Below, one piece after another: positions 32,753 through 47,616 of a stretch of 64,000 bases of DNA. Where the stretch lies: the NCBI RefSeq assembly GCF_003018115.1, contig NZ_CP027457.1; one strand, written 5' to 3'. The stretch's first letter is position 1; every line of letters starts with the position of its first letter. Below the pieces are notes generated by a model, which saw nothing but the letters and a program-made list of their open reading frames with translations, made no database searches and had not been told where the DNA came from. Origin of the DNA: Escherichia coli. GTDB taxonomy: Bacteria > Pseudomonadota > Gammaproteobacteria > Enterobacterales > Enterobacteriaceae. The position numbers were made by a program, and so were the translations under genes.

Positions 32753-32899
32753 GCCATCAGCCTTTTCTTTAAAGACATATTATCTTTGTATCATTTCTGA
32801 TAGTTAACATTACAAGATATAAGTAATGGACGCACTCCCAATTAGTCTATTTAAATCGCCACGAGTTTAACTGACAACCCATGATCAATTATGAATTGC

Positions 32900-34600
32900 A
32901 ACTATTTCTGTAGTCACTTTTGTGGGGACAGTCCACAAAACTGCCAACTTCCGCTTCTTGCTCTTAGCGGACATTAGCATAGGCTATTTACCATAACGCC
33001 TCATTACGCGCACCGCCCAGACTGACTCAGCGCGTTTCTGGCATATCCCCGGTAAAACAAGTAACAAACCACCCGAAAATGAACACCAGAAACGCGACTT
33101 AAGAATCTACCCTATGAATGGATATGCACTCAACCGAATCGATCTTGGTTTCAATCTTTTTTATCGGGATCAGGCTTCTTTTTAGGTAACTTCGGGGGCT
33201 TAACTTGCTGATGACTTTGCGTTCGGCGCGTAAGCCAGGGATGGTCAGCTTTAGGTTTAACATAGTATTTTGAGCGTAAATCAATACGGGCATTATCCAC
33301 TCGTTCATGGACACTCTTTTCATCATCCAGTGGTATAGGCTCCGGGCCATCAACATACTTTTCCCAGCCCAGCGCTTTCCCGTCATACAGAACGTTAATT
33401 TCACCGTCAAAGTTCTCGCATACAGTAACAACCGAATGCCTAAGTCGATATCCCCGGCCCTCACTGCGTACCTGAAACGCACTGCTTTTGTACTGGAAAG
33501 TGAGATTTTTAGACAGAACGCGCTTCGCCTGTAGGCTGAAGATATAACCCAGTTCCTCTTCAGAATGGTGCACATCAAGATGAGCATTATCAGTAGTACG
33601 AGGCGACGTAGCGAACCGGTTGTTATAGGCTTCAATAAAGGTCGGCAACCATGCATTTGCTGTTTCAATATCACTGATATTCTGAAGCCGCATTTCTTTG
33701 ACCAGCCTGTCCTGTAGTGTCTGATTGGCGCGCTCTACCCGCCCTTTTGCCTGCGGGCTGTTGGCATGGATTGGCTCGATGCCCAGTGTCTTTATCGCAC
33801 GAGTGAACTGGGTCAGCTCACCTTCCCGCTCTGGGTTATTTACCCTGAATATACTGTGTCTATCAGAGTAGAGAGCGAGCGGTACGCCATGATCATTAAG
33901 GTAACCCCGGAGGGTTTCCATGTAAGCCCGGGTTGTTTCAGCAGGCACAAAACGCAACGCCATCAACGCACTGGTGGCATCATCAATGAAAACGATCAGT
34001 GTACATCTGGGGCCTCGATTTTCAAACCAGTCATGAGGTGAGCCATCAATCTGGATCAGTTCACCGTAAGATGGTCGTCGCATGCGGCGTTGATATATAC
34101 GGGCAATTTTACGACGGCGTTCACGCCATAACCCCTCTTCTATCATCCACTTTCTGAGAGTTTCAACGGATAAAGATAAACCGTGTATCTCGCGCAATTT
34201 TTCGCACGCAAACGTAGGTCCAAAATCAGCGTAACGGCCTTTGAGGAGTGAAATTACTGTTGCTCTGAATTCAGTAGAAAAGGAATTATTAGGACGCTTT
34301 CCACGTCGGTGGGAAACCAGACCAGAAGGCCCTTCATTTCTATACCGTTGCACCAGACGTTTAACCTGCCGAATAGAAATGCCAATGCGTGCCGCAGCTT
34401 GTTCCTGAATAATCTGAAGTCGGTGGAGTTCCTTATGACTCATCGTAACAGTCTCTTTGATCATGAAAAATCCCCCAGAGAATTGTCTGGGGACATTTTA
34501 GAATGGTTCAAAGGGGACATTACAGCTTGGTGTTAACAATAGCCTGCTTCTCCGTGCCTTTCGGCACGTAAGAGGCTAACCTACATGTGTCTAGCATGAA
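32900..34600 (-). mobile_element. Insertion sequence carrying a single DDE transposase (IS481/ISNCY-type); ends not resolved
   Basis: Single 437-aa transposase ORF; terminal inverted repeats could not be assigned by eye. Confidence 0.55.
33151..34464 (-). CDS. DDE transposase with N-terminal HTH and integrase-core (rve) catalytic domain
   Basis: 437 aa; D (IQIDGS), D (YSDRHS), E (GRVERANQ) triad spacing typical of rve. Confidence 0.85.
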   Translation of the reverse strand: MIKETVTMSHKELHRLQIIQEQAAARIGISIRQVKRLVQRYRNEGPSGLVSHRRGKRPNNSFSTEFRATVISLLKGRYADFGPTFACEKLREIHGLSLSVETLRKWMIEEGLWRERRRKIARIYQRRMRRPSYGELIQIDGSPHDWFENRGPRCTLIVFIDDATSALMALRFVPAETTRAYMETLRGYLNDHGVPLALYSDRHSIFRVNNPEREGELTQFTRAIKTLGIEPIHANSPQAKGRVERANQTLQDRLVKEMRLQNISDIETANAWLPTFIEAYNNRFATSPRTTDNAHLDVHHSEEELGYIFSLQAKRVLSKNLTFQYKSSAFQVRSEGRGYRLRHSVVTVCENFDGEINVLYDGKALGWEKYVDGPEPIPLDDEKSVHERVDNARIDLRSKYYVKPKADHPWLTRRTQSHQQVKPPKLPKKKPDPDKKD

Positions 34601-34798
34601 ATTGGCCTCAGATTAATGTTAAGCGTCTTGCAGGACGCGTAATGTTAACTGGGGCTTTTCTCTATCTGCCGTTGGTGTCCATGCCCGAGGCAGATAGCCT
34701 CAAGCACCCGCAGTCATTCTACTTAACTAAGATTTCCCCGCAAACCGTTTTTGTCCAGCACAGTAAATATCCAACTAAACCAATGGAGTTCGCTGTAT

Positions 34799-34978
34799 TT
34801 ACCGCCAGTATTCAATGCACATGACCGCCATGAACACCCCTAAAAAAAGGGCATTTATATATCCAAATATTAATATCAAAACATCAACTTTTTCCATATA
34901 CCTTGCTGTGAAGATGATGGGCATACATGATGCGAACAACCAGAACGCAACAAACAAAAACTGCAATGCGTTTTTCAT
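34799..34978 (-). CDS. Candidate small two-TM membrane protein (59 aa)
   Basis: AGGAGG Shine-Dalgarno 4 nt before ATG; MKNALQFLFVAFWLFASCMPIIF...; no homolog recognised. Confidence 0.35.
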   Translation of the reverse strand: MKNALQFLFVAFWLFASCMPIIFTARYMEKVDVLILIFGYINALFLGVFMAVMCIEYWR

Positions 34979-35652
34979 TATTCCTCCTACAATCAATGTG
35001 CAATTACATTTAAACACACCTCAATTTGGCCGGACATATAAATATCTAAACCAGAAAAAATCACTTACATAGCGTTACAAACTCTTTAGTCTAAAGGTTC
35101 ATCGTAAAACATTCCCCATACTTATCAGTCCGTTCCGCGCCAGGTAGCTCATTGCCTTATCTGGCAACCTGTAATCAGGTTTCCGCTTTTTCAGTTGGCT
35201 GGTCGTTTAACCGACATAGTTAATCCATTAATCTAGTTGCCGGATGTTGGTGGATTTTCGCGTTTTAGTTGTTCATAAAAGTGCACAGCTTTAACCAGTT
35301 CTTCTGATGTAACTGGGACTGGTGAGGCAGTGAATAAGGCCTGAATTTGATAGTTCGGCCTGTCGTTACAATCCTCTTTTTTCGGTACATATTTCCAGTC
35401 ACCAGACCACTACTTCCCCTGAAAGTCCGTAACGCCTTTTTTCACGTAGCGATATCGCCATGCCACTGGTTTTGCTTGCCCCGCCGTTTCATGCCCTTCC
35501 TGATAATTAATCTCGCTCATTCATCGCCCCACTCATCACAATATGCTTCGACCGGAGTTTTTCCCGCTTCATAGTCATCACGCTAGGATTCGACATCAGC
35601 AGCACTTCCACCGCGTAACTCACCATAGTCCATTAATAGTTCATCCCGCTCT

Positions 35653-35660
35653 TCAAAACT
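35653..35660. repeat. 8-bp target site duplication TCAAAACT (left copy) of IS66-family element
   Basis: Identical 8-mer immediately outside both inverted repeats. Confidence 0.7.
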
Positions 35661-35741
35661 GTAAGCGTCGTCTCAGCACCGTCTGGCAGATCCTGAAATT
35701 CCTGAGAGAATAGTGGACACCAAATATGGTGGACGCAATCC

Positions 35742-36146
35742 ATGAAATCATTAACCGCAGTGCGTAAAAAAAGCCCTAATTATCCCGTTGAGTTCAAAAT
35801 CAAAATGGTTGAACTCTCGCATCGACCAGAGATCTCCGTAGCGCAACTCGCTCGTGAGCATGGGATCAACGATAATTTGCTGTTCAAGTGGCGCCAGTAC
35901 TGGCGCGAAGGAAAACTACGTCCTCCTTCAACAACAGAAAACAACGTGCCTGAGCTGCTCCCGATAACACTTGATGCCGAAGATGTTGTCCCTACAACCT
36001 CCCCCCGGTCACAACCTGTAGCTGCTGCGACACCTGAATCACTCAATATCAGCTGTGAAGTGACGTTCCGGCACGGATCACTCCGTCTGAATGGTGCCAT
36101 CAGCGAAAATATCCTGAACCTGCTGATACGGGAGCTCAAACGTTGA
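35742..36146 (+). CDS. IS66-family accessory protein TnpA (orf1)
   Basis: 134 aa, HTH-like N-terminus, first ORF of element. Confidence 0.85.
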   Translation: MKSLTAVRKKSPNYPVEFKIKMVELSHRPEISVAQLAREHGINDNLLFKWRQYWREGKLRPPSTTENNVPELLPITLDAEDVVPTTSPRSQPVAAATPESLNISCEVTFRHGSLRLNGAISENILNLLIRELKR

Positions 36147-36490
36147 TCCCATTACCATCAGGGACAAAGATCTGGCTGGTCGCTGGCATCACCGATATGA
36201 GAAACGGCTTCAACGGCCTGGCGGCAAAGGTGCAGACGACGCTGAAAGACGATCCGATGTCAGGTCACGTTTTTATCTTCCGTGGGCGTAATGGCAGTCA
36301 GGTAAAGCTCCTCTGGTCTACCGGCGATGGACTGTGTCTGCTGACCAAACGGCTGGAGCGCGGCCGCTTCGCCTGGCCGTCAGCCCGGGATGGCAAAGTG
36401 TTCCTCACACCGGCACAGCTGGCGATGCTGCTGGAAGGTATCGACTGGCGGCAGCCTAAAAGACTGCTTACGTCCCTGACTATGTTGTAA
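36143..36490 (+). CDS. IS66-family TnpB (orf2)
   Basis: 115 aa, 4-nt overlap with tnpA. Confidence 0.85.
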   Translation: MIPLPSGTKIWLVAGITDMRNGFNGLAAKVQTTLKDDPMSGHVFIFRGRNGSQVKLLWSTGDGLCLLTKRLERGRFAWPSARDGKVFLTPAQLAMLLEGIDWRQPKRLLTSLTML

Positions 36491-36538
36491 GCCTCTTTAT
36501 CCTGGTCGACGCTGAATGAGCCTGGTAATATACCCGGT

Positions 36539-38074
36539 ATGAGCAGCTCACTTCCTGACGATATCAATGCACTGAAACGTCTCCTTGCCGAACAGGAGGC
36601 GCTGAACCGTGCCCTGCAGGAAAAGCTGAACGAGCGTGAACGCGAAATAGACCATCTGCAGGCACAGCTGGATAAGCTGCGCCGGATGAACTTCGGCAGC
36701 CGCTCGGAAAAAGTCTCCCGTCGTATCGCACAGATGGAAGCTGACCTGAAGGCACTTCAGAAAGAAAGTGATACCCTTACCGGTCGGGTTGACGACCCGG
36801 CCGTGCAGCGCCCGCTGCGTCAAACCCGCACCCGCAAACCGTTCCCCGAATCACTCCCCCGCGATGAAAAACGGCTGCTGCCGGCAGCGTCATGCTGCCC
36901 GGAATGTGGAGGCTCGCTGAGCTATCTGGGTGAGGATGCCGCCGAACAGCTGGAGCTGATGCGCAGCGCCTTCCGGGTTATCCGGACTGTACGTGAAAAG
37001 CATGCCTGTACTCAGTGCGATGCCATCGTGCAGGCCCCCGCGCCTTCACGGCCCATCGAGCGGGGTATCGCAGGACCGGGGCTGCTGGCCCGCGTGCTGA
37101 TCTCAAAGTATGCAGAGCACACCCCGCTGTACCGCCAGTCTGAAATGTACGGCCGCCAGGGCGTGGAGCTGAGTCGTTCACTGCTGTCGGGCTGGGTGGA
37201 TGCATGCTGCCGGCTACTGTCACCGCTGGAAGAAGCGCTTCAGGACTATGTGCTGACTGACGGTAAGCTCCATGCTGATGACACGCCTGTCCCGGTGCTG
37301 TTGCCAGGCAATAAGAAAACGAAGACCGGGCGGTTATGGACCTACGTTCGTGACGACCGTAACGCCGGGTCAACGCTGGCGCCGGCGGTGTGGTTCGCTT
37401 ACAGCCCGGACAGAAAAGGCATCCATCCGCAGACCCATCTTGCGGGGTTCAGTGGTGTACTGCAGGCGGATGCATACGCCGGGTTCAACGAGCTGTACCG
37501 GGATGGCCGGATAACGGAAGCCGCCTGTTGGGCTCACGCCCGCCGTAAAATCCACGATGTGCACGTTCGCACCCCGTCAGCCCTGACGGAGGAAGCGCTG
37601 AAACGGATCGGCGAACTGTACGCCATCGAGGCAGAGATAAGGGGAATGACGGCGGAGCAGCGCCTTGCCGAACGTCAGTTGAAAACGAAACCGCTGCTGA
37701 AATCCCTGGAAAGCTGGCTGCGTGAAAAGATGAAAACCCTGTCGCGACACTCAGAACTGGCGAAAGCGTTCGCATACGCCCTGAACCAGTGGCCGGCGCT
37801 GACGTACTATGCAGATGATGGCTGGGCTGAGGCGGACAATAACATCGCTGAAAATGCGTTGCGGATGGTCAGTCTGGGCCGCAAAAACTACCTGTTCTTC
37901 GGTTCGGATCATGGAGGAGAGCGGGGAGCGCTGCTGTACAGCCTGATCGGGACGTGCAAACTGAACGGAGTGGAGCCAGAAAGCTACCTCCGCTATGTCC
38001 TTGACGTCATAGCCGACTGGCCGATAAACCGGGTCGGCGAACTGCTCCCCCTGGCGCGTAGCACTGCCGACTGA
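36539..38074 (+). CDS. IS66-family transposase TnpC (orf3)
   Basis: 511 aa, N-terminal leucine zipper, Cys-x2-C zinc motif, DDE core. Confidence 0.9.
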
Positions 38075-38115
38075 ATAACACATCCCCGTCAATACGGTTC
38101 TTGCTGCACGCTTAC

Positions 38116-38123
38116 TCAAAACT
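38116..38123. repeat. 8-bp target site duplication TCAAAACT (right copy)
   Basis: Matches left copy at 35653-35660. Confidence 0.7.
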
Positions 38124-38593
38124 GATGTTATATTTAGCTGAACAAAAATCAGCCACTTTGTTCTTCCTCATCGTCTTTTATTTCGTGGTATGAGTAATTG
38201 CAGTAGTTAAAGAAAATTTCTTATGCTCCGTCATGAATTTCCTCAGGTGTTGCGTCATCGTCCACTTCGAATACATCCTCAAAATCTCCACCAGCTATTC
38301 CCGTTTCAATAATAATTTTGAACTTTCGCATTTCACTACCGCCCTTTCGGGCGGCCTCCTGATGTTCTGAGGGTGCAGAAATCCATCCGGTTAAGGATTA
38401 AATTTTATTTACAGAACTGAATTTAATTATTCAGATATACGTATCTGTAGCCTTACGAATCTACTCACTGGATGCCTCTTTCATAAAAATAATCCAGTGG
38501 GTTTTATCGTTTTTTCCCTGTTCGTTGACAGATAACAGGTTTTCTGTCTGTCAGTGCCAGAATCTGGCTTACCGGTATTTGCGTTTCATTCCA

Positions 38594-38950
38594 TTAAAAA
38601 ATCAGAACGCCGTGCGGCCTCAACACCCGAAAGGCTTCTTTAAATCTCTGTCGCGAATCATCACGCCAGGCATCTTTATTCAGCCGTCCATATTTCTTTC
38701 CCATCCAGGCGTTATCACCAACACTCTCAAGATGCGGAGGGTCTAATACAACCATCGAAAAAGATGCGTCTGCAAATGATAATGCACGAAAATCTGCGAT
38801 AATGTCAGGGCTGATAATCAAGCGTCTCCCATTGCGTAATGTGTATCCTTCTTTTCTGATATCGCTGAATATCGCCCGTTCGTCAGACTTATCGAACCAG
38901 AACATGCGGCTGCCACAGCACATATCAAGAATGGTTGCCGGTGCACTCAC
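38594..38950 (-). pseudogene. Truncated SAM-dependent methyltransferase-like ORF (motif I then DPPH)
   Basis: 118 aa is too short for a full Rossmann MTase; in-frame TAA followed by about 32 further sense codons. Confidence 0.4.
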
Positions 38951-39369
38951 TGCGCCACGTCCTGAAAATTACCCTGATAGAAAGCCAGTATGCGCTGCAT
39001 AACTTCGCTCTTCCGGCACTCGCGACAGATTATGTTTAGGCGACTGTCGTAGCGACGTATTTCTCCGTCAGGTGATGACCAGATAAGGTCCGGATCAACC
39101 ACAGCAGGTTTCTTCACCTTTGCCCTCGAGAGTTTTTTGCGGGCGTTTTGCCAGTCCTTACGCGCCTGTTCAGAGGGGAATAACCCGTAGCCGGAGTTGT
39201 ATACATCGCCACTGGCTACCAGCTCTCTGGCAAGAACGCTCATCAGATATCTAGTCGCACCTGTTTTAGCTTCCAGTTGCCGTAACGTCTCACGGCCGCT
39301 CTGGCGCACGAGTTCCACCACCTGCCATTTAATTTTTTCCCGCTCTTCTTGTGTAAAAACTTTTGCCAC
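38947..39369 (-). CDS. Hypothetical 140-aa prophage early-operon protein
   Basis: Translationally coupled (4-nt overlap) to downstream MTase-like ORF; no family recognised. Confidence 0.45.
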   Translation of the reverse strand: MAKVFTQEEREKIKWQVVELVRQSGRETLRQLEAKTGATRYLMSVLARELVASGDVYNSGYGLFPSEQARKDWQNARKKLSRAKVKKPAVVDPDLIWSSPDGEIRRYDSRLNIICRECRKSEVMQRILAFYQGNFQDVAQ

Positions 39370-39409
39370 AAGTCCCCCTTAAAATTACCTCATGACCTGA
39401 AATCAACAC

Positions 39410-40429
39410 TTATCCTCTGAAACCAGGCGGAATTTCTGTATCCGGTTCAGAAATATGATTAACACAACGCTGTACAGGTGAACGTCCCAGGCGGATGACC
39501 AGTTCGTCCCATTTTTCGCGGAGCTTTGACGGGCTCATGATGTTTTTTACCCAGAATGGATCTCGCTGAACCCGACCAAACATTTCGCAAATTTGTCTGT
39601 GGCTTCTGCCATCCAGCATCCGCATTGTGCGCACGTCATTGGCCCAGGCAGTCCAGTTAGGCTCTTTTGGTCGCATGATCTCGCCATCATCACTGGCTGC
39701 CTGTTCGTAGAGACCCACGATCCGCCCCCAGATCCACTGCGCACACGCCAAATCCTCCCTGCTACCCCACTGGCGTTTTTTCGCACTAAACACAACCGCG
39801 TCGGAGTTCCGGGTTAAAAAATCCTGTTCAGTCGTCTGCGGGTCCGGTTGCGAAGCTTCCGGACGAAAAGTGTTTTTATTCTCTGTAGTAATCTCTGTTG
39901 TATTCTCTGTAAGATCATCAGGCCATTTTGACCCGATGACATTGGGTCGTTTTGAACCAATGGAGCGTTTCATTTTGACCTCTTCCATCGTGTCATTTTG
40001 ACCTGATGGAGCGGCGCATTTTGAACCGATGGATTCGCTCAATTTGCCACCATCTAAAAGCTCGCTCCCATAGTTGATCGTGTAGAAATTGGTCATATCG
40101 CGCTTTGATTTATTGAGCTTTTCACAACGCAAAAGCCCCAGCGTTTTCAGACTTGCAAACGCGCGCTTTAACGTTGACTCTGACCAGAATGGGAACTGTT
40201 CCAGCCATTGTTCCGTTGTGTTATAAATCCAGCGAACACCATCACATTCCATGCCGGAGTTGGTATCTCTCAACCAGTAGTGCAGTTGTTGCAAAACAAT
40301 GGCTTCGTTTAAGCCAATTTTCATTGCCAGCTGCGTGTTTATAACCAGTGGACGTTCAGCAAAAAGAAGGCTCATAATTCCATCCAGCTTTTTGTTGGTA
40401 TTGCTGTCGATACGCAAGTTTGAAAGCAA
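39410..40429 (-). CDS. Replication initiator / replisome organiser (lambda O-like), start uncertain
   Basis: N-terminal HTH-like domain; gene contains five direct iteron repeats encoding (S/V)IGSK repeats; sits in early-right operon after the cro-like dicC. Confidence 0.65.
   Translation of the reverse strand: MLSNLRIDSNTNKKLDGIMSLLFAERPLVINTQLAMKIGLNEAIVLQQLHYWLRDTNSGMECDGVRWIYNTTEQWLEQFPFWSESTLKRAFASLKTLGLLRCEKLNKSKRDMTNFYTINYGSELLDGGKLSESIGSKCAAPSGQNDTMEEVKMKRSIGSKRPNVIGSKWPDDLTENTTEITTENKNTFRPEASQPDPQTTEQDFLTRNSDAVVFSAKKRQWGSREDLACAQWIWGRIVGLYEQAASDDGEIMRPKEPNWTAWANDVRTMRMLDGRSHRQICEMFGRVQRDPFWVKNIMSPSKLREKWDELVIRLGRSPVQRCVNHISEPDTEIPPGFRG
39920..40035. repeat. Candidate replication origin iterons: five direct repeats of about 19 bp (consensus CATTTTGAMCNGATGG) at about 23-bp spacing, AT-rich region adjacent
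   Basis: Repeats read directly in sequence inside the O-like gene, as for lambda ori. Confidence 0.6.
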
Positions 40430-40877
40430 TTGCTTTTTCTATAAGTTCGTCAGTTTCACGATCCACTACGGCAGGATCAGCAAAAAGCAGTCCGGACTCC
40501 ACCACATCGCCATATTCTTTGTTTAACCCGGCGATCATGCACGTGATGCTTTTTCCGTCAGTAATTTCACGATACAACCTGAAATCATTAATCCGGATAG
40601 CCTCCATAATTGCAGGCACTAGCGCCGTGAACTTTTCACGCTTATCCCTGGTGTCGATAGCCTTCCAGCGTTCAAATATCTTCACTCGATTAACGCCAAG
40701 CGCTCGCTGATCAATCGCGCCACCTTCATATGTGACACGCTGAACATCGATGTTCGGGCGCTCTTTCAAAGCCCAGAATGCTTCAGTGATTAATATCGTC
40801 GCCTGCTCCTGTGTCATTCCTGGTCGACATATCCAGGCATCCAGAGCCTCACGAGCCTGTTCAGGAGTGATTTTCAT
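40356..40877 (-). CDS. Hypothetical 173-aa protein directly downstream of dicC (possibly YdaT-like)
   Basis: Position equivalent to ydaT/cII in lambdoid early-right operons; family call from memory only. Confidence 0.45.
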   Translation of the reverse strand: MKITPEQAREALDAWICRPGMTQEQATILITEAFWALKERPNIDVQRVTYEGGAIDQRALGVNRVKIFERWKAIDTRDKREKFTALVPAIMEAIRINDFRLYREITDGKSITCMIAGLNKEYGDVVESGLLFADPAVVDRETDELIEKAIAFKLAYRQQYQQKAGWNYEPSFC

Positions 40878-41091
40878 TGTTCAACCGCCCCGCCCGCTTC
40901 GTCTTACGATATTCATCATAAACTTTGGGATCATACTGAAGCTCCCCGCCAGATGCCTCCTGTAGACGCATCGCGCGACCTTCGGGAACTAAATCCCCTT
41001 TCCAGCTATAAAGCGAAGCCAAACGAATACCTGCTGCTTGTGCAAGTTTTGTTTTTGAACCGAAATACAAAAGAGCGTCAGTTTTAAGCAT
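40861..41091 (-). CDS. dicC: Cro-like repressor DicC
   Basis: 76 aa MLKTDALLYFGSKTKLAQAAGIRLASLYSW. Confidence 0.9.
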   Translation of the reverse strand: MLKTDALLYFGSKTKLAQAAGIRLASLYSWKGDLVPEGRAMRLQEASGGELQYDPKVYDEYRKTKRAGRLNNENHS

Positions 41092-41106
41092 TTAAAACAC
41101 CTTTAT

Positions 41107-41126
41107 TGTTAGTCATAACTAACAAG
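41107..41126. promoter_or_regulatory. Candidate DicA/DicC operator (imperfect palindrome TGTTAGTCATAACTAACA) in the dicC-dicA divergent promoter region
   Basis: Near-palindrome; related motif recurs at 41653-41670 and at the dicA start. Confidence 0.45.
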
Positions 41127-41174
41127 ATAGATGTTAACAAAAACATAGTCAATACGATTTAGCATTAGCTAACT

Positions 41175-41582
41175 ATGGAAACAAAAAATTTAACTATCGG
41201 CGAACGCATCAGGTATCGTCGGAAAAACCTCAAACACACCCAAAGGTCTCTTGCTAAAGCCCTGAAAATCTCCCATGTGTCTGTATCACAATGGGAACGG
41301 GGTGATAGTGAACCTACAGGGAAGAACCTTTTTGCCCTCAGCAAAGTATTGCAATGCTCACCAACATGGATTCTATTTGGCGATGAAGACAAGCAACCAA
41401 CACCACCTGTTGAGAAGCCAGTTGCCTTATCCCCCAAAGAACTAGAGCTCCTTGAGCTGTTTAATGCACTGCCAGAATCAGAACAGGATACCCAGCTCGC
41501 CGAAATGCGAGCTCGAGTAAAAAACTTCAATAAACTCTTTGAAGAATTACTAAAAGCCCGTCAGCGGACAAATAAAAGATAA
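41175..41582 (+). CDS. dicA: Repressor DicA (HTH_XRE, cI-like)
   Basis: 135 aa METKNLTIGERIRYRRKNLKHTQRSLAKALKISHVSVSQWERGD. Confidence 0.95.
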   Translation: METKNLTIGERIRYRRKNLKHTQRSLAKALKISHVSVSQWERGDSEPTGKNLFALSKVLQCSPTWILFGDEDKQPTPPVEKPVALSPKELELLELFNALPESEQDTQLAEMRARVKNFNKLFEELLKARQRTNKR

Positions 41583-41652
41583 CATCATCAATGAGTTATC
41601 TTTTACCACATCAATTATGTTAGCTATAGCATACAAAATCACTTGACCGATA

Positions 41653-41670
41653 TGTTAGTCATGGCTAATC
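41653..41670. promoter_or_regulatory. Second operator-like palindrome (TGTTAGTCATGGCTAATC) upstream of the ydfA-dicB operon
   Basis: Same half-site motif as 41107-41126; lies between dicA stop and ydfA. Confidence 0.4.
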
Positions 41671-41748
41671 TTGTTTGCATCAACACACCGCACGGTGTTC
41701 TCAGCAAACAGTTCCGCTACCCCAGCGTTAAGGGGAAATGAGGTCAGC

Positions 41749-41904
41749 ATGGATACTATCGATCTTGGCAACAACGAATCTCTGGTGTACGGCGTGTTTC
41801 CAAACCAGGACGGCACGTTCACCGCAATGACGTATACCAAAAGCAAAACGTTTAAAACCGAAAATGGTGCCCGTCGCTGGCTGGAAAGAAACTCAGGTGA
41901 GTGA
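41749..41904 (+). CDS. ydfA: YdfA
   Basis: ORF track 41671-41904 trimmed to MDTIDLGNNESLVYGVF, 51 aa. Confidence 0.75.
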   Translation: MDTIDLGNNESLVYGVFPNQDGTFTAMTYTKSKTFKTENGARRWLERNSGE

Positions 41905-41905
41905 T

Positions 41906-42034
41906 ATGGATTTCGACACAATCATGGAAAAGGCTTACGAAGAATACTTCGAAGGCCTTGCCGAAGGCGAAGAAGCTCTCAGCTTCAGTGAGTTTAAACA
42001 GGCGCTTTCCAGTTCGGCAAAATCTAACGGCTGA
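41906..42034 (+). CDS. ydfB: YdfB
   Basis: Hand-translated 42 aa MDFDTIMEKAYEEYFEGLAEGEEALSFSEFKQALSSSAKSNG. Confidence 0.7.
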   Translation: MDFDTIMEKAYEEYFEGLAEGEEALSFSEFKQALSSSAKSNG

Positions 42035-42063
42035 TAAGCGAAACAGCACCGCGAGGAATCAGT

Positions 42064-42282
42064 ATGCAGAAACGAGAACCCGTCATCATCGCGCCAGACT
42101 ATACCGATGATGAACTTTATGAGTGGATGCGCCAGAAAATTAATGCAGCGCAGGATCTGAAATGGGCTAATGAAGCCAGGGCTAAGCAGGCTGAAAATCT
42201 GTCCGCTCTGGAGCAGGATATCACCAATCTGGAAAAAGCAGCGGCATTAAGCATTGCCAGAATGATTACATACCCGCGTTAG
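42064..42282 (+). CDS. ydfC: YdfC
   Basis: 72 aa MQKREPVIIAPDYTDDELYEWMRQKINAAQDLKWANEARAKQAENL. Confidence 0.85.
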   Translation: MQKREPVIIAPDYTDDELYEWMRQKINAAQDLKWANEARAKQAENLSALEQDITNLEKAAALSIARMITYPR

Positions 42283-42620
42283 TAGCTAATCAACAAAGCT
42301 AAGGTTAGTAATTAAGGAGTTCTCCACGGGTGAGGTGGAGTGCGTGCGCCGGACACGGGTGCGCATCCGGAACTGACAGTTTACTGAAAGGATATTTCCC
42401 TGAAAAGTCAGACCATAACGCGAAAGCGCACGGCGAGGTAGCTGGTTCATAGATAGCCTGTCGTTAAATTTTCGTCGACCGTGCGCTTCCGGTTGTGGCA
42501 ACCCGCGAAATGGCGCGGCGGTAAGTATGGCGGGGTTATTCCTTCCCCGTTGAGGACACCGGGTTGTCAGGTTGACCATACGCTTAAGTGACAACCCCGC
42601 TGCAACGCCCTCTGTTATCA

Positions 42621-42679
42621 ATTTTCTGGTGACGTTTGGCGGTATCAGTTTTACTCCGTGACTGCTCTGCCGCCCTTTT
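42621..42679 (+). ncRNA. dicF: DicF small regulatory RNA (antisense inhibitor of ftsZ translation)
   Basis: Sequence TTTCTGGTGACGTTTGGCGGTATCAGTTTTACTCCGTGACTGCTCTGCCGCCCTTTTT with 3' terminator hairpin, between ydfC and dicB. Confidence 0.75.
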
Positions 42680-42849
42680 TAAAGTGAATTTTGTGATGTG
42701 GTGAATGCGGCTGAGCGCACGCGGAACAGTTAAAACCAAAAACAGTGTTATGGGTGGATTCTCTGTATCCGGCGTTAATTGTTAACTAGTTAACGTCACC
42801 TGGAGGCACCAGGCACTGCATCACAAAATTCATTGTTGAGGACGCGATA

Positions 42850-43038
42850 ATGAAAACGTTATTACCAAACGTTAATACGTCTGAAGGTTGTTTTGAAATT
42901 GGTGTCACTATCAGTAACCCAGTATTTACTGAAGATGCCATTAACAAGAGAAAACAAGAACGGGAGCTATTAAATAAAATATGCATTGTTTCAATGCTGG
43001 CTCGTTTACGTCTGATGCCAAAAGGATGTGCACAATGA
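42850..43038 (+). CDS. dicB: Cell division inhibitor DicB
   Basis: 62 aa MKTLLPNVNTSEGCFEIGVTISNPVFTEDAINKRKQERELLNK. Confidence 0.9.
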   Translation: MKTLLPNVNTSEGCFEIGVTISNPVFTEDAINKRKQERELLNKICIVSMLARLRLMPKGCAQ

Positions 43039-43226
43039 ATTCAGCATTTGTGCTTGTTCTGACAGTTTTTCTTGTTTCCGGAGAGCCAGTTGATATTGCA
43101 GTCAGTGTTCACAGGACAATGCAGGAGTGTATGACTGCAGCAACCGAACAGAAAATTCCCGGTAACTGTTACCCGGTCGATAAAGTTATTCACCAGGATA
43201 ATATCGAAATCCCGGCAGGTCTTTAA
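43035..43226 (+). CDS. ydfD: YdfD (small membrane-anchored lysis-type protein)
   Basis: ORF track 42981-43226 trimmed to MNSAFVLVLTVFLVSG, 63 aa; ATGA overlap with dicB stop. Confidence 0.75.
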   Translation: MNSAFVLVLTVFLVSGEPVDIAVSVHRTMQECMTAATEQKIPGNCYPVDKVIHQDNIEIPAGL

Positions 43227-43318
43227 AACAGTTCCGTAATAAATATCCGGTTTCATTCTTATATGCCAGCAATGGCAGGGATTTGTTCATCCTTAAATCT
43301 GTCATGAGGTTAAAACAA

Positions 43319-45790
43319 ATGAGTAAAGTCTTTATTTGCGCCGCTATTCCTGACGAACTGGCAACAAGGGAAGAAGGCGCTGTGGCTGTAGCCACAGCCA
43401 TTGAAGCTGGCGACGAACGCCGTGCTCGAGCAAAATTTCACTGGCAATTCCTGGAACATTATCCGGCTGCTCAGGACTGCGCTTATAAATTTATTGTCTG
43501 CGAGGATAAACCTGGCATACCCCGCCCTGCCCTCGATTCATGGGATGCTGAATATATGCAGGAAAACCGCTGGGATGAGGAGTCTGCTTCTTTTGTCCCG
43601 GTTGAGACTGAATCCGATCCGATGAACGTCACTTTTGACAAGCTGGCCCCTGAAGTACAGAACGCTGTCATGGTTAAGTTCGACACATGTGAAAACATCA
43701 CCGTTGATATGGTTATTAGCGCACAGGAATTGTTGCAGGAAGACATGGCAACATTCGACGGACATATCGTTGAAGCGTTGATGAAAATGCCAGAAGTTAA
43801 CGCCATGTATCCGGAGCTTAAGTTGCACGCCATTGGGTGGGTTAAGCATAAATGTATTCCTGGTGCTAAATGGCCCGAAATTCAGGCAGAGATGCGCATC
43901 TGGAAAAAACGTCGCGAAGGTGAACGCAAGGAAACCGGAAAATACACGTCTGTTGTTGATCTCGCCCGCGCCAGAGCCAATCAACAGTACACTGAAAATT
44001 CAACAGGAAAAATCAGCCCGGTCATTGCTGCCATTCATCGCGAATACAAGCAGACATGGAAAACACTGGATGACGAACTGGCCTACGCTCTCTGGCCTAG
44101 TGATGTGGATGCCGGAAACATTGACGGCAGCATCCATCGCTGGGCAAAAAAAGAAGTTATCGACAACGACCGCGAAGACTGGAAGCGTATCTCGGCATCA
44201 ATGCGCAAACAGCCTGATGCCCTTCGCTACGACCGCCAAACTATTTTTGGCCTTGTCCGTGAGCGTCCGATCGACATTCACAAAGATCCCGTAGCACTGA
44301 ACAAATATATCTGCGAATACCTGACGACAAAGGGCGTGTTTGAGAATGAAGAAACAGACCTGGGCACTGTTGATGTTCTCCAGTCATCAGAAACACAAAC
44401 TGATGCAGTGGAAACTGAGGTATCTGATATCCCAAAAAATGAAACCGCGCCGGAAGCTGAACCATCTGTAGAGCGTGAGGGGCCGTTCTATTTCCTCTTC
44501 GCAGATAAGGACGGAGAAAAATACGGTCGCGCAAACAAACTCTCTGGTCTGGATAAGGCACTGGCTGCTGGCGCCACTGAAATCACAAAAGAAGAATATT
44601 TTGCCCGAAAAAATGGCACATACACGGGCTTACCGCAAAATGTAGATACCGCTGAAGATTCAGAACAACCAGAGCCGATAAAAGTTACCGCTGACGAAGT
44701 AAACAAAATTATGCAGGCAGCCAATATCAGCCAGCCTGACGCCGATAAGTTGCTTGCTGCATCACGTGGTGAATTTGTTGAAGGGATTAGTGACCCGAAT
44801 GATCCGAAATGGGTTAAGGGGCTCCAGACCCGCGATTCTGTGAACCAGAACCAGCATGAATCGGAACGGAACTACCAAAAAGCGGAACAAAACAGTCCAA
44901 ATGCGTTACAAAACGAGCCAGAAACGAAACAGCCTGAACCAGTAGCGCAACAGGAAGTGGAAAAAGTCTGCACCGCCTGCGGTCAGACCGGCGGCGGCAA
45001 CTGCCCTGATTGTGGCGCGGTGATGGGCGACGCAACATACCAAGAAACATTCGATGAAGAGTATCAGGTTGAAGTTCAGGAAGATGATCCGGAGGAAATG
45101 GAAGGCGCTGAACATCCACACAAGGAGAACACTGGCGGCAATCAGCATCACAATAGCGATAATGAAACTGGCGAGACGGCAGATCACCCAATTAAGGTGA
45201 ACGGTCATCACGAAATCACATCCACCAGCAGGACGTGTGACCATCTAATGATCGACCTTGAAACCATGGGAAAAAATCCTGATGCCCCGATCATCTCAAT
45301 AGGTGCAATATTTTTCGATCCGCAAACCGGAGATATGGGACCGGAATTTAGTAAGACTATCGATCTGGAAACTGCTGGCGGAGTCATTGATCGGGACACC
45401 ATTAAATGGTGGCTTAAGCAATCACGCGAAGCGCAATCTGCCATTATGACCGATGAAATCCCGTTAGATGATGCACTGTTACAATTGCGAGAATTTATCG
45501 ACGAAAACTCCGGTGAATTTTTTGTTCAGGTTTGGGGAAATGGAGCCAACTTCGACAACACGATTTTGCGCCGTTCATACGAACGGCAGGGGATCCCCTG
45601 CCCGTGGCGTTACTACAACGATCGCGATGTACGCACAATCGTTGAGCTGGGGAAAGCCATAGACTTCGATGCCAGAACGGCTATTCCATTCGAAGGTGAG
45701 CGCCATAATGCACTTGATGACGCCCGTTACCAGGCAAAATACGTTTCAGTTATCTGGCAAAAACTGATCCCGAGTCAGGCTGATTCTTAA
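43319..45790 (+). CDS. ydfE: Full-length YdfE-type protein: large N-terminal region, acidic linker, Cys4 zinc ribbon, C-terminal DEDDh 3'-5' exonuclease domain
   Basis: ORF track 43283-45790; start chosen at MSKVFICAAIPDEL after GAGG; Exo I DLE, Exo II GNGANFD, Exo III HNALDDARY motifs in the last ~190 aa. Confidence 0.7.
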   Translation: MSKVFICAAIPDELATREEGAVAVATAIEAGDERRARAKFHWQFLEHYPAAQDCAYKFIVCEDKPGIPRPALDSWDAEYMQENRWDEESASFVPVETESDPMNVTFDKLAPEVQNAVMVKFDTCENITVDMVISAQELLQEDMATFDGHIVEALMKMPEVNAMYPELKLHAIGWVKHKCIPGAKWPEIQAEMRIWKKRREGERKETGKYTSVVDLARARANQQYTENSTGKISPVIAAIHREYKQTWKTLDDELAYALWPSDVDAGNIDGSIHRWAKKEVIDNDREDWKRISASMRKQPDALRYDRQTIFGLVRERPIDIHKDPVALNKYICEYLTTKGVFENEETDLGTVDVLQSSETQTDAVETEVSDIPKNETAPEAEPSVEREGPFYFLFADKDGEKYGRANKLSGLDKALAAGATEITKEEYFARKNGTYTGLPQNVDTAEDSEQPEPIKVTADEVNKIMQAANISQPDADKLLAASRGEFVEGISDPNDPKWVKGLQTRDSVNQNQHESERNYQKAEQNSPNALQNEPETKQPEPVAQQEVEKVCTACGQTGGGNCPDCGAVMGDATYQETFDEEYQVEVQEDDPEEMEGAEHPHKENTGGNQHHNSDNETGETADHPIKVNGHHEITSTSRTCDHLMIDLETMGKNPDAPIISIGAIFFDPQTGDMGPEFSKTIDLETAGGVIDRDTIKWWLKQSREAQSAIMTDEIPLDDALLQLREFIDENSGEFFVQVWGNGANFDNTILRRSYERQGIPCPWRYYNDRDVRTIVELGKAIDFDARTAIPFEGERHNALDDARYQAKYVSVIWQKLIPSQADS

Positions 45791-45862
45791 TGTTCAACTG
45801 TCGCCGGTTGTGACTGGTATTCTGCAACCGGCGCTCGTCTGATGTAAGAGATAAAGAAATCG

Positions 45863-46114
45863 ATGAGCGAAGTAATCATGATTGTCTCTCCCGGCAAATG
45901 GGTATCCGAAGAGCAGTTAATTGCGCTGAAAGGAATAAAAAAAGGTACGTTAAAAAAGGCCCGGGAAAAATCGTTTATGGAAGGAAGGGAATATAAGCAT
46001 GTCGCTCATGACGGTATGCCATGGGATAACAGTCCATGCTTTTACAACCTGGAAGAAATTGATCGCTGGATTGAGCGCCAGGCATCAGCGAGACCAAGAC
46101 GTCATCTTACTTGA
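45863..46114 (+). CDS. Excisionase-like protein
   Basis: 83 aa small basic protein immediately upstream of integrase. Confidence 0.55.
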   Translation: MSEVIMIVSPGKWVSEEQLIALKGIKKGTLKKAREKSFMEGREYKHVAHDGMPWDNSPCFYNLEEIDRWIERQASARPRRHLT

Positions 46115-46148
46115 CTAAAAGCCACACTAACTAATGAGAGAAGTTGAA

Positions 46149-47429
46149 ATGAAATATCCGACAGGCGTGGAAAACCATGGAGGGAAATTACGTATCTGGT
46201 TTGTTTATAAAGACGTAAGAGTCAGGGAAAATCTGGGGGTTCCTGACACAGCAAAAAACAGGCGCGTTGCAGGTGAACTACGCTCCTCTGTTTGTTACGC
46301 AATAAAAACTGGTGTTTTCGACTATGCAAAACAGTTTCCCTCCTCACGCAATCTGGAAAAATTTGGTGAGGCCCGACAAGATTTAACCATAAAAGAACTG
46401 GCTGAAAAATTTCTGGCACTGAAAGAAACTGAAGTCGCCAAAACATCACTCAACACATACCGTGCCGTCATCAAAAATATCCTGAGCATAATCGGTGAAA
46501 AAAATCTTGCCTCATCGATTAATAAAGAAAAATTACTGGAGGTTCGTAAAGAGTTACTGACTGGATACCAGATCCCCAAAAGTAACTATATTGTTACACA
46601 ACCAGGGAGATCGGCTGTAACTGTAAATAATTACATGACAAATCTTAACGCCGTGTTCCAGTTTGGTGTTGATAACGGTTACCTGGCAGATAATCCGTTT
46701 AAGGGGATCTCGCCATTAAAGGAATCAAGAACCATTCCGGATCCTCTTTCGCGGGAAGAATTTATCCGTCTTATCGATGCGTGCAGAAATCAGCAAGCAA
46801 AAAATTTATGGTGTGTTTCTGTTTATACTGGAGTTCGCCCTGGTGAGCTGTGTGCACTTGGATGGGAGGACATAGATCTGAAAAATGGAACAATGATGAT
46901 CAGGAGAAATTTAGCAAAAGACCGTTTCACGGTACCAAAAACACAGGCGGGAACCAATCGGGTCATTCATCTTATTAAGCCAGCAATCGACGCTCTCCGG
47001 AGTCAGATGACATTAACGAGACTGAGCAAAGAGCATATCATTGATGTTCACCTCAGAGAGTATGGCAGAACAGAAAAACAAAAATGCACCTTTGTTTTTC
47101 AACCTGAAGTGTCAGCGAGAGTAAAAAATTATGGTGACCATTTTACCGTTGACTCAATAAGGCAGATGTGGGACGCAGCGATAAAACGTGCCGGACTCCG
47201 CCATCGAAAATCATATCAGTCGAGACATACTTATGCCTGCTGGTCGCTGACAGCTGGTGCTAACCCGGCATTTATAGCAAACCAGATGGGCCATGCAGAT
47301 GCGCAAATGGTATTTCAGGTATACGGAAAATGGATGTCTGAAAACAATAATGCACAGGTAGCTTTGTTAAATACACAGTTAAGCGAGTTTGCCCCAACCA
47401 TGCCCCATAACGAAGCAATGAAAAATTAA
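46149..47429 (+). CDS. intQ: Tyrosine recombinase / phage integrase (full-length)
   Basis: ORF track 46134-47429; C-terminal catalytic region with R...HxxR...Y pattern (ending HTYACW). Confidence 0.85.
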   Translation: MKYPTGVENHGGKLRIWFVYKDVRVRENLGVPDTAKNRRVAGELRSSVCYAIKTGVFDYAKQFPSSRNLEKFGEARQDLTIKELAEKFLALKETEVAKTSLNTYRAVIKNILSIIGEKNLASSINKEKLLEVRKELLTGYQIPKSNYIVTQPGRSAVTVNNYMTNLNAVFQFGVDNGYLADNPFKGISPLKESRTIPDPLSREEFIRLIDACRNQQAKNLWCVSVYTGVRPGELCALGWEDIDLKNGTMMIRRNLAKDRFTVPKTQAGTNRVIHLIKPAIDALRSQMTLTRLSKEHIIDVHLREYGRTEKQKCTFVFQPEVSARVKNYGDHFTVDSIRQMWDAAIKRAGLRHRKSYQSRHTYACWSLTAGANPAFIANQMGHADAQMVFQVYGKWMSENNNAQVALLNTQLSEFAPTMPHNEAMKN

Positions 47430-47616
47430 TTTAATATTTATCAAATAGTTAACACGCATGACTCTTGAAATCCATAAATTCAAGCGCAGTGCCCAGCCAT
47501 CCCGATACCGCTGCTTTCACCAAATCCTTAGTGCTTCTTTCGTGTTTTTCTATTGTCATAATGGTTATCTCTAAAAAAGAGGTAAGATGCGTACTACTTA
47601 CTCGCCGTTATTGGTA

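What the first reader, a model, noticed from the sequence alone, without database searches (positions are those of the whole stretch)
42850..43226. Overlapping dicB-ydfD pair encodes two host-lethal functions
The ydfD start codon overlaps the dicB stop (ATGA). DicB is a division inhibitor and YdfD a small membrane-anchored protein with N-terminal TM segment; together with DicF they form a kil-like cluster kept silent by DicA.
Basis: established knowledge. Interest (0 to 1): 0.2.

Follow-up and report, generated by a model that had tools for sequence, protein, structure and literature searches.

The report
Known dicB–ydfD prophage gene pair
This is the well-studied dicB–ydfD gene pair of the E. 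coli Qin prophage (a cell-division blocker followed by a small lysis protein), correctly spotted and ordinary, except that the lysis protein's supposed membrane anchor looks more like part of a small soluble fold.

Summary
dicB (42850..43038, 62 aa) and ydfD (43035..43226, 63 aa) overlap by ATGA at 43035-43038. Both proteins carry the same RefSeq accessions as those annotated in an E. coli O16:H48 (K-12 serotype) genome. DicF lies upstream at 42624..42675. dicA and a DicA-type operator inside the operon promoter lie further upstream. All of this is published: DicB blocks division through MinC, YdfD lyses cells when overexpressed, DicB or SulA prevents that lysis, and DicA represses the operon.

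The overlap itself is unremarkable, since 9 of 57 same-strand neighbour pairs in this stretch overlap by 4 nt. It is conserved, however: 85 of 86 loci, including a lineage with only 45-48% YdfD identity.

My additions are modest:
- All 20 phage records with DicB have a DUF1482 gene abutting it. DUF1482 also follows other small genes, one of them weakly Kil-like.
- In phage Evi a Rac-type kil gene replaces the whole cassette.
- Two AlphaFold runs place the hydrophobic N-terminus of YdfD in a beta-hairpin of a compact fold, not a membrane helix. The "membrane-anchored" detail is therefore doubtful.
- Published single-copy data suggest YdfD is not lethal at operon-level expression.

Verdict: already known, low interest.

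The parts
40861..41091 (-). dicC (Cro-like regulator), divergent from dicA
   Evidence: 76-aa ORF. Annotated dicC at the same offset in the collinear genome L007.
41107..41124 (.). DicA-type operator palindrome TGTTAGTCATAACTAACA in the dicA-dicC intergenic region
   Evidence: Repeat D1 and inverted repeats I1/I2; sequence read. Its function as an operator is inferred from PMC10448788.
41175..41582 (+). dicA, the CI-like repressor of the dicBF operon (135 aa)
   Evidence: Pfam HTH_3, E = 1.3e-16. Annotated as DicA, WP_000448564.1. Repression is shown in PMC10448788.
41643..41671 (+). Candidate dicBp promoter: -35 TTGACC (41643-41648), 17-nt spacer, -10 TAATCT (41666-41671). An operator copy TGTTAGTCATGGCTAA (41653-41668) lies inside the spacer.
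   Evidence: Read from the sequence; operator copy found. The consensus scan did not flag this promoter, so it is my manual reading and is inferred.
41749..42282 (+). ydfA (41749..41904), ydfB (41906..42034) and ydfC (42064..42282), the promoter-proximal small genes of the operon
   Evidence: Annotation of collinear L007 at offset +10000. DUF1391 hit for ydfA.
42283..42623 (+). Long untranslated spacer between ydfC and DicF, predicted to be structured
   Evidence: MFE -123.8 kcal/mol, z = -2.83, with 0 of 100 shuffles folding as well. The literature describes RNase III/E processing of this transcript (reference cited in PMC10448788).
42624..42675 (+). DicF sRNA (ftsZ antisense regulator)
   Evidence: Rfam RF00039, 76.7 bits against a gathering score of 48, full model length.
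42850..43038 (+). dicB, 62-aa division inhibitor
   Evidence: Pfam DicB, 1.9e-40, positions 1-62 of 62. Carries the same accession, WP_000854559.1, as in an O16:H48 (K-12 serotype) genome.
43035..43038 (+). ATGA start/stop overlap, with Shine-Dalgarno-like AAGGA at 43022-43026
   Evidence: Conserved in 85 of 86 loci, including the divergent lineage L003/L006.
43035..43226 (+). ydfD, 63-aa DUF1482 protein (lysis protein YdfD)
   Evidence: Pfam DUF1482, 3.9e-26. Accession WP_001083297.1, 'lysis protein YdfD'. AlphaFold2 elements: E4-12, E18-26, H29-38, E44-48.
42834..43235 (+). Exchangeable cassette (dicB with its SD, plus ydfD), replaced as a unit by kilR in phage Evi
   Evidence: blastn of window 42281-43330 against Evi: the left flank is 96.4% identical up to window 42834, and the right flank is 91.8% identical from window 43237. 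The Evi insert matches PHROG 'Kil protein for bacterial septation inhibition', E = 7.9e-33.
43319..45790 (+). Next gene downstream: intact 823-aa exonuclease (K-12 ydfE is its truncated remnant). Listed as context, not as part of the pair.
   Evidence: Annotation. Pfam Rv2179c-like, 2.5e-67, in the C-terminal part. In the K-12-serotype genome the gene is cut short next to an IS2 fragment.

Best explanation
The region is the dicB-ydfD gene pair of the dicBF early-left operon of a Qin-type lambdoid prophage in E. coli. Here the prophage is nearly full length and sits next to rspB.

Proposed mechanism, with the basis for each step:
1. Shown in the literature: DicA binds operators that overlap the operon promoter and keeps the operon off. 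When repression is lifted, one transcript covers ydfABC, DicF, dicB and ydfD, and it is processed to release DicF.
2. Shown in the literature: DicB binds MinC and sends it to the septum through ZipA, which dismantles the FtsZ ring. DicF represses ftsZ translation.
3. Inferred from the sequence: ydfD is translated by ribosomes that terminate at the dicB stop and restart at the overlapping ATG, helped by an AAGGA 8 nt upstream. YdfD is therefore made together with DicB.
4. Shown in the literature for ectopic expression: YdfD lyses dividing cells. One paper reports that it binds and inhibits IspG. Lysis is prevented when division is blocked by DicB or SulA.
5. Inferred: in the native arrangement the net result of derepression is filamentation rather than lysis.
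6. New here, prediction only: YdfD is a small soluble beta-beta-alpha-beta protein whose hydrophobic N-terminus is a core strand, not a membrane anchor.
For: Identity of the genes:
- Pfam DicB 1.9e-40 and DUF1482 3.9e-26.
- The window is 100% identical to annotated E. coli genomes over 25 kb. Both proteins carry the same accessions as in an O16:H48 (K-12 serotype) genome.
- DicF matches Rfam at 76.7 bits.

Regulation:
- DicA has an HTH domain, and an operator copy lies inside the -35/-10 spacer.
- PMC10448788 shows repression by DicA and a 1,608-nt ydfABC-dicFB-ydfD transcript.

Coupling of the two genes:
- The ATGA overlap and Shine-Dalgarno sequence are present.
- The overlap is kept in 85 of 86 loci. 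This includes a lineage with 61-67% DicB identity and 45-48% YdfD identity, in which no alternative ydfD start exists.
- All 20 phage records with DicB have a DUF1482 gene abutting it.
- In PPompW-type loci the divergent mosaic block covers the dicB 3' part plus ydfD together.
- In phage Evi the whole cassette is swapped for kilR.

Functions:
- DicB-MinC-ZipA pathway: PMC6832061.
- YdfD lysis, block by DicB/SulA, and IspG binding: PMC8835842.
- YdfD toxicity confirmed: PMC9782134.
- Filamentation when the whole operon is induced: PMC5069750.

Fold of YdfD:
- Two AlphaFold2 runs on different alignments gave the same E4-12/E18-26/H29-38(39)/E44-48 topology, with mean pLDDT 80.9 and 81.1.
- The uncharged hydrophobic run is 14 residues.
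- Homologues carry R, Q, N, H or C inside that segment, and many have a second Cys pair at aligned positions 12 and 18.
Against: - Translational coupling is inferred only. ydfD has its own good Shine-Dalgarno sequence, 4-nt overlaps are common (9 of 57 pairs), and one locus has a 2-nt gap.
- The Kyte-Doolittle 19-residue maximum for this YdfD is 2.0, above the usual 1.6 TM cut-off. The TM reading attributed to Masuda 2016 is therefore not excluded.
- AlphaFold2 does not model membranes.
- I could not read Masuda 2016, which may hold localisation data.
- The IspG target rests on one paper without enzyme kinetics.
- A Plac-dicBF strain lacking dicF and dicB but retaining ydfD is grouped with the wild-type control for growth. 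Lethality of YdfD at native dosage is therefore unproven.
Confidence: 0.85

Rival explanations
1. The pairing is incidental. dicB and ydfD are two independent accessory (moron-like) genes packed tightly in a compact phage operon, and the ATGA overlap has no regulatory meaning.
For: - 4-nt overlaps occur in 16% of same-strand neighbour pairs in this stretch.
- ydfD has its own Shine-Dalgarno sequence.
- One locus has a 2-nt gap instead of an overlap.
- DUF1482 genes occur without DicB in Klebsiella, Citrobacter and Salmonella phages, and as chromosomal yebW.
- There is no special RNA structure at the junction (z = -0.5).
Against: - All 20 DicB-carrying phage records have DUF1482 directly downstream.
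- The overlap survives about 50% protein divergence.
- The two genes are exchanged as a unit.
- In other lineages DUF1482 is also joined by ATGA, by TGATG or by a longer overlap to whatever small gene precedes it.
- A published functional interaction exists: DicB blocks YdfD lysis.
Confidence: 0.25
2. YdfD is a membrane-anchored (or exported) lysis protein. Its N-terminal hydrophobic stretch spans or enters the inner membrane, and its target is at the envelope rather than cytoplasmic IspG.
For: - The Kyte-Doolittle 19-residue maximum is 2.0 at residues 5-23.
- The C-terminal part has two invariant cysteines, which could form a periplasmic disulfide.
- A few relatives have a longer, signal-peptide-like N-terminus with a K or R near the start (P0146, P0166, P0174).
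- Lysis is division-dependent, which suggests an envelope target.
Against: - The run free of charged or strongly polar residues is only 14 residues, 12 at the family median.
- Only 11 of 36 relatives pass the hydropathy cut-off.
- Two AlphaFold2 models make it a beta-strand paired with residues 18-26 at pLDDT about 90.
- Distant relatives begin directly at MFALV with no N-terminal flank, and carry Cys at aligned positions 12 and 18.
- YdfD was studied in solution with IspG by pull-down, size-exclusion chromatography and calorimetry (PMC8835842).
Confidence: 0.25
3. dicB-ydfD works as a toxin-antidote (addiction-like) pair. DicB is a dedicated antidote to YdfD, made upstream and in excess.
For: - The architecture resembles type II toxin-antitoxin operons: small upstream gene, overlapping small downstream toxic gene.
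- DicB neutralises YdfD lysis (cited in PMC8835842 and PMC11430063).
- DicB is never seen without DUF1482 in phage records.
Against: - SulA, an unrelated division inhibitor, neutralises YdfD equally, so protection is indirect and works through division arrest.
- DicB is itself toxic (PMC10448788, PMC5069750).
- The operon is controlled by DicA, not autoregulated by the pair.
- No direct DicB-YdfD binding has been reported.
Confidence: 0.07

Closest known systems
dicBF operon of the Qin cryptic prophage of E. coli K-12 (ydfABC-dicF-dicB-ydfD)
   Same: Same genes in the same order, with the same DicA, DicB and YdfD protein accessions as in an O16:H48 (K-12 serotype) genome. Same DicF, same chromosomal site next to rspB, and the same ATGA overlap.
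   Different: The surrounding prophage is far more complete. It has an intact 823-aa exonuclease, xis and int downstream, replication-region genes to the left of dicC, and full-size head and tail ORFs. It is 100% identical to phage PhiR42_1 over 90% of a 25-kb query.
kil genes of lambdoid phages (Rac KilR, lambda Kil)
   Same: Same position in the early-left operon, upstream of the exonuclease/recombination genes, and the same effect on FtsZ-dependent division. In phage Evi a KilR-type gene occupies exactly this slot between the same flanks.
   Different: DicB has no sequence similarity to either Kil family, matching only Pfam DicB. By the literature it acts through MinC/ZipA rather than on FtsZ directly. 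In Evi the replacing kil gene stands alone, with no DUF1482 gene between it and the exonuclease.
Single-gene lysis proteins (phiX174 E, Qbeta A2, phage M LysM)
   Same: A small phage protein that lyses growing cells by starving cell-wall synthesis rather than degrading the wall, as proposed for YdfD-IspG in PMC8835842.
   Different: YdfD belongs to a tailed temperate phage that also carries holin, endolysin and spanin genes (essD, rrrQ, rzpQ). It lies in the early operon, not the lysis cassette. Its lysis is masked by its own upstream neighbour. Unlike protein E, a membrane helix is not supported here.
YebW (chromosomal DUF1482 protein of E. coli and Salmonella)
   Same: Same family (PF07358), same length, the two invariant cysteines and the same N-terminal FALVL motif.
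   Different: It is not next to dicB. It lies in yebV-yebW-pphA, with a gap of about 110 nt after yebV, and it has four cysteines. I found no paper on its function in the library searched.

Membership tests
DicB (Pfam PF05358) | Full-length match to the family profile above the curated cut-off | tested here: met
   136.8 bits against a cut-off of 27, positions 1-62 of 62. Same accession, WP_000854559.1, as in an O16:H48 (K-12 serotype) genome.
DicB (Pfam PF05358) | MinC-dependent block of septation | not testable with these tools
   Taken from PMC6832061. It applies because the protein sequence is the one annotated as DicB in K-12-type genomes.
YdfD / DUF1482 (Pfam PF07358) | Match to the family profile above the cut-off, plus the two invariant cysteines | tested here: met
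   91.1 bits against a cut-off of 25. C32 and C45 are invariant in 36 sequences. Accession WP_001083297.1, 'lysis protein YdfD'.
   For: Kyte-Doolittle 19-residue maximum of 2.0. Against: the uncharged run is 14 residues; only 11 of 36 relatives reach 1.6; AlphaFold2 predicts a beta-strand at 4-12 in two independent runs. No dedicated TM or signal-peptide predictor and no experiment were available.
DicF sRNA (Rfam RF00039) | Covariance-model match above the gathering score, located upstream of dicB | tested here: met
   76.7 bits against 48, positions 1-52 of 52, at 42624..42675.
Lambdoid immunity-type control (DicA/DicC) | Divergent HTH repressor genes, with repeated operators overlapping the promoters | tested here: met
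   dicA matches HTH_3 at 1.3e-16, and dicC is divergent. The palindrome at 41107-41124 has a copy at 41653-41668 inside the -35/-10 spacer. Repression itself comes from PMC10448788.
Translationally coupled gene pair | Stop/start overlap, with the downstream ribosome-binding site inside the upstream ORF | tested here: met
   ATGA at 43035-43038 and AAGGA at 43022-43026. Conserved in 85 of 86 loci.
Translationally coupled gene pair | Downstream translation depends on upstream translation | not testable with these tools
   Needs a dicB nonsense mutant with a ydfD reporter. The normal growth of the published dicF/dicB double deletion is compatible with coupling but does not show it.
Kil division inhibitors (Pfam Lambda_Kil; PHROG 294 KilR type) | Sequence match to a Kil profile | tested here: not met
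   DicB and YdfD hit only phrog_1251/24763 and phrog_1092, all of unknown function, and no Kil family. The pair is kil-like by position and effect only.
Type II toxin-antitoxin pair | Specific direct neutralisation of the toxin by its cognate upstream partner | not testable with these tools
   The literature says SulA also prevents YdfD lysis, which argues against a specific antidote.

The most novel reading that the evidence does not exclude
DUF1482 proteins, including YdfD, are soluble beta-beta-alpha-beta mini-proteins rather than membrane proteins. They form the constant downstream half of a two-gene module in the early-left operon of enterobacterial lambdoid phages. The upstream half of that module is exchangeable: DicB in E. 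coli, a weakly Kil-like protein in one lineage, and two uncharacterised small-protein families (phrog_22279, phrog_3722) in Klebsiella, Citrobacter and Salmonella phages. If all these partners are division inhibitors, the module would be a general 'stop division, and thereby mask a division-dependent lysis factor' device, and two new families of division inhibitors would be predicted.
Probability: 0.25. Interest if true: 0.4.

Novelty: already known. Interest (0 to 1): 0.12.

Why it matters
As a finding it matters little.

The small residue of value has two parts:
1. The commonly repeated 'N-terminal transmembrane domain' of YdfD is not supported by family-wide analysis or by structure prediction. 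This bears on whether a cytoplasmic target such as IspG is plausible.
2. DicB never appears without a DUF1482 gene in phage records, while DUF1482 has several other tightly coupled upstream partners. This points to candidate new division inhibitors that are cheap to test.

Tried and rejected
- Masuda et al. 2016 (PMC5975272), the primary YdfD paper, is not held. Its results are cited second-hand.
- Sequence search of the PDB with the YdfD profile and with DicB found nothing meaningful (best E = 0.59).
- RNA folding of the 121 nt around the junction gave z = -0.5. There is no evidence for a structure controlling ydfD initiation.
- The consensus promoter scan found nothing significant and missed dicBp. 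The promoter given in the parts list is my manual reading.
- The search for related loci with the distant-homologue alignment A3 failed for lack of a conserved stretch. I used tblastn against phage records and exact-protein contig look-ups instead.
- The first viral-contig scan returned only close relatives, at 92% identity or more. The 85/86 overlap figure is therefore dominated by near-identical loci.
- The representative search hit long repeat proteins (for example P0132, 848 aa, 13 stretches). I rejected these as composition or repeat artefacts.
- I considered a second dicB/ydfD copy in the window. tblastn found none.
- The Icd-like division inhibitor annotated in L007 is not in the window. 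The window and L007 are collinear only from window 18864 onward.

Full report
**1. Observation**

The stretch 42850-43226 holds two same-strand ORFs. One runs from ATG 42850 to TGA 43036-43038 (62 aa). The other runs from ATG 43035 to TAA 43224-43226 (63 aa). The bases 43035-43038 are ATGA, so the start of the second gene overlaps the stop of the first by 4 nt.

A GAGGA lies 7 nt before the first ATG, and an AAGGA lies 8 nt before the second, inside the first ORF.

The first protein matches Pfam DicB over its whole length (E = 1.9e-40). The second matches DUF1482 (E = 3.9e-26).

**2. What the window is**

The 701 bp around the pair occur in 4,625 of 5,426 complete E. coli genomes. A 25-kb query (22001-47000) is 100% identical to several chromosomes.

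In strain N921 (locus L007, window = L007 + 10000 from window 18864 onward) RefSeq annotates, in order: dicC, dicA, ydfA, ydfB, ydfC, dicB, ydfD, an 823-aa exonuclease, excisionase, integrase, then rspB and rspA.

DicA, DicB and YdfD carry the same protein accessions as in an O16:H48 (K-12 serotype) genome. That genome differs downstream, where the exonuclease gene is truncated next to an IS2 fragment.

Rfam finds DicF at 42624..42675 (76.7 bits).

This is therefore the dicBF operon of a Qin-type prophage at the Qin chromosomal site. The prophage is much more complete here:
- It has full-size head and tail ORFs to the left.
- It is 100% identical over 90% of the 25-kb query to phage PhiR42_1.
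- Related phage records (Tritos, HannyBb, mEp460) carry the same pair.

**3. Regulation**

dicA (41175..41582) encodes an HTH_3 protein. The perfect palindrome TGTTAGTCATAACTAACA lies in the dicA-dicC intergenic region (41107-41124). A copy, TGTTAGTCATGGCTAA (41653-41668), lies between a TTGACC (41643) and a TAATCT (41666) upstream of ydfA. This fits an operator inside the operon promoter.

The literature shows that DicA represses this promoter. It also shows that a 1,608-nt ydfABC-dicFB-ydfD transcript exists (PMC10448788).

The 341-nt spacer between ydfC and DicF folds better than all 100 shuffles (z = -2.83). This is in line with the published RNase III/E processing.

**4. Is the overlap meaningful?**

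By itself it is not unusual. Nine of 57 same-strand neighbour pairs in the annotated 49 kb overlap by exactly 4 nt. The RNA around the junction is not unusually structured (z = -0.5).

It is conserved, however. Of 86 loci examined, 84 have ATGA, one has GTGA and one has a 2-nt gap. Most of these loci are close relatives.

The informative cases are the PPompW-type loci L003 and L006, with DicB 61-67% and YdfD 45-48% identical to the window. They keep the 4-nt overlap and a GGAG upstream. An in-frame stop lies 27 nt upstream with no other start, which fixes the conserved start at the overlap.

Both genes are under purifying selection (dN/dS 0.12-0.54).

In those loci the divergent block begins about 75 nt into dicB and ends about 35 nt after the ydfD stop, between near-identical flanks. 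The DicB C-terminal part and the YdfD type therefore travel together.

**5. Linkage of the two genes**

In the phage collection, 20 records encode DicB, and all 20 have a DUF1482 gene abutting it. Nine further records have DUF1482 without DicB: six Klebsiella, one Salmonella, one Citrobacter and one short fragment.

Reading those loci and metagenomic contigs, the DUF1482 gene is again joined to a preceding small gene in every case:

| Upstream partner | Loci | Junction |
|---|---|---|
| about 40-aa phrog_22279 protein | L090, L097-L099 | ATGA |
| 65-aa phrog_3722 protein | L094, L100, L101 | TGATG |
| 64-aa protein with weak lambda-Kil similarity (Pfam 9.4e-5, below cut-off; PHROG Kil 3e-3) | L096 | 44-nt overlap |
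| 97-aa protein of unknown family | L092 | 13-nt overlap |

The chromosomal yebW of Salmonella is the exception. It follows yebV after a gap of about 110 nt.

The family is small. Only 80 clusters at 50% identity among 1.84 billion representatives reached E <= 0.001.

**6. Kil-like slot**

In phage Evi the sequence is 96% identical to the window up to window 42834, through DicF and the leader. It is 92% identical again from window 43237. The roughly 400 bp between, which is the dicB+ydfD cassette, is replaced by a 73-aa gene that matches the KilR-type PHROG 'Kil protein for bacterial septation inhibition' (E = 7.9e-33).

By sequence, DicB is not a Kil family member.

**7. Functions from the literature**

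- DicB binds MinC, and the complex is targeted to the septum via ZipA. It also blocks ManYZ-dependent phage entry (PMC6832061).
- DicF represses ftsZ (PMC5069750).
- Ectopic ydfD expression lyses cells. Co-expression of dicB or sulA prevents lysis. YdfD was reported to bind IspG, and ispG overexpression or the IspG product rescues cells (PMC8835842).
- YdfD toxicity was confirmed in PMC9782134.

Two qualifications apply. First, the two 'lethal functions' are epistatic, not additive. Second, PMC5069750 groups the induced Plac-dicBF strain lacking dicF and dicB, but still carrying ydfD, with the wild-type control for growth. So either YdfD is not lethal at single-copy operon level, or its synthesis depends on dicB translation.

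**8. The 'N-terminal TM segment'**

YdfD begins MNSAFVLVLTVFLVSGEPVD. The Kyte-Doolittle 19-residue maximum is 2.0, above the usual 1.6 cut-off. The run free of charged or strongly polar residues is only 14 residues and is followed by E17, P18 and D20.

Across 36 family members, only 11 reach 1.6, and the median such run is 12 residues. R, Q, N, H and C occur inside the segment. Several distant members start directly at MFALV. Many have an extra Cys pair at aligned positions 12 and 18, in addition to the invariant C32 and C45.

I ran AlphaFold2 twice. The first run used the window protein with the 36-sequence alignment. The second used a 39%-identical homologue with an alignment that excludes all E. 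coli YdfD-like sequences. Both gave the same compact topology: strand 4-12, strand 18-26, helix 29-38/39, strand 44-48. Mean pLDDT was 80.9 and 81.1, with about 90 over residues 11-40.

The hydrophobic N-terminus is thus predicted to be the first strand of a beta-hairpin in a small soluble domain. This would fit the published solution work with cytoplasmic IspG.

This remains a prediction. AlphaFold2 ignores membranes, I had no dedicated TM predictor, and I could not read Masuda 2016. I rate the membrane-anchor claim as doubtful, not refuted. Fold searches gave no significant relative.

**9. Verdict**

The membrane-anchor detail is questionable, and 'two lethal functions' needs the epistasis and dosage caveats.

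- Novelty: already known.
- Interest: low (0.12).
- Most novel reading not excluded: DUF1482 proteins are soluble and form the constant half of a module with exchangeable, possibly division-inhibiting, upstream partners. I give this a probability of about 0.25.

Noticed in passing
window 43319..47429: Downstream of ydfD the prophage end is intact: an 823-aa exonuclease (C-terminal Rv2179c-like 3'-5' exonuclease domain, Pfam 2.5e-67), then excisionase (45863..46114) and integrase (46149..47429), then rspB. In the K-12-serotype genome the exonuclease is truncated next to an IS2 fragment and the integrase is partial.
   Followed up: partly
window ~1400..47430: The Qin-site prophage here looks nearly full length. 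It has portal-size (18097..19698), terminase-size (19898..21823), tape-measure-size (9430..11991) and 1165-aa (3530..7027) ORFs. It is 100% identical over 90% of 22001-47000 to Escherichia phage PhiR42_1. The missing 10% appears to correspond to IS elements: an ISEc22 (IS66 family) at about 35742-38078 and an ISNCY remnant at 33421-34443, by offset from L007.
   Followed up: partly
window 42283..42623: The 341-nt untranslated spacer between ydfC and DicF folds markedly better than shuffles (MFE -123.8 kcal/mol, z = -2.83, 0 of 100). This is probably the RNase III/E processing substrate described for DicF maturation. No Rfam family covers it.
   Followed up: partly
window 42670..42834: The leader between DicF and the dicB start is 80-85% conserved in phages that have no dicB (Rac-SA53, P7, D6, Shigella Stx phages). 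In Evi it precedes kilR. It may be a shared 5' leader for division-inhibitor genes or part of DicF paralogue loci.
   Followed up: no
window 34538..34709 (-): An Rfam sok antitoxin hit (104 bits) lies next to the ISNCY remnant. It is about 3 kb from the annotated hokD (31096..31251 by offset) and relBE (31323..31849). This suggests a second hok/sok-type locus or remnant.
   Followed up: no
window 24405..24790 and 27300..27692 (-): Two cspA-type thermoregulator leaders (Rfam 112.8 and 158.8 bits) belong to the prophage cold-shock genes (cspI and cspB by offset).
   Followed up: no
L004 (phage Evi) 2756..2977: A Rac KilR-type gene exactly replaces the dicB-ydfD cassette between conserved flanks. 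This is a clean example of module exchange at the kil slot.
   Followed up: yes
L090, L094, L096-L101: DUF1482 genes in Klebsiella, Citrobacter and Salmonella phages and in metagenomic contigs are joined by ATGA, by TGATG or by a longer overlap to other small upstream genes. These are phrog_22279 (about 40 aa), phrog_3722 (about 65 aa) and one weakly lambda-Kil-like protein. Functions are unknown.
   Followed up: partly
L003, L006 versus window 42925..43260: In PPompW-type loci the divergent mosaic block runs from about 75 nt into dicB to about 35 nt past the ydfD stop. The DicB C-terminal part and the YdfD type therefore co-segregate, while the DicB N-terminus and DicF stay near-identical.
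   Followed up: partly
phage record MT713136.1 (Aeromonas phage AP1), 249906-250152: A 247-nt stretch is 98.4% identical to the E. coli DicF region in a 254-kb Aeromonas phage record, with no annotation there. It looks like contamination or a chimeric assembly rather than biology.
   Followed up: no
L007 1..8864 (not in the window): In strain N921 a P4-like satellite, carrying an Icd-like division inhibitor, is inserted in the Qin portal gene. The window lacks this insertion and has an intact portal-size ORF.
   Followed up: partly
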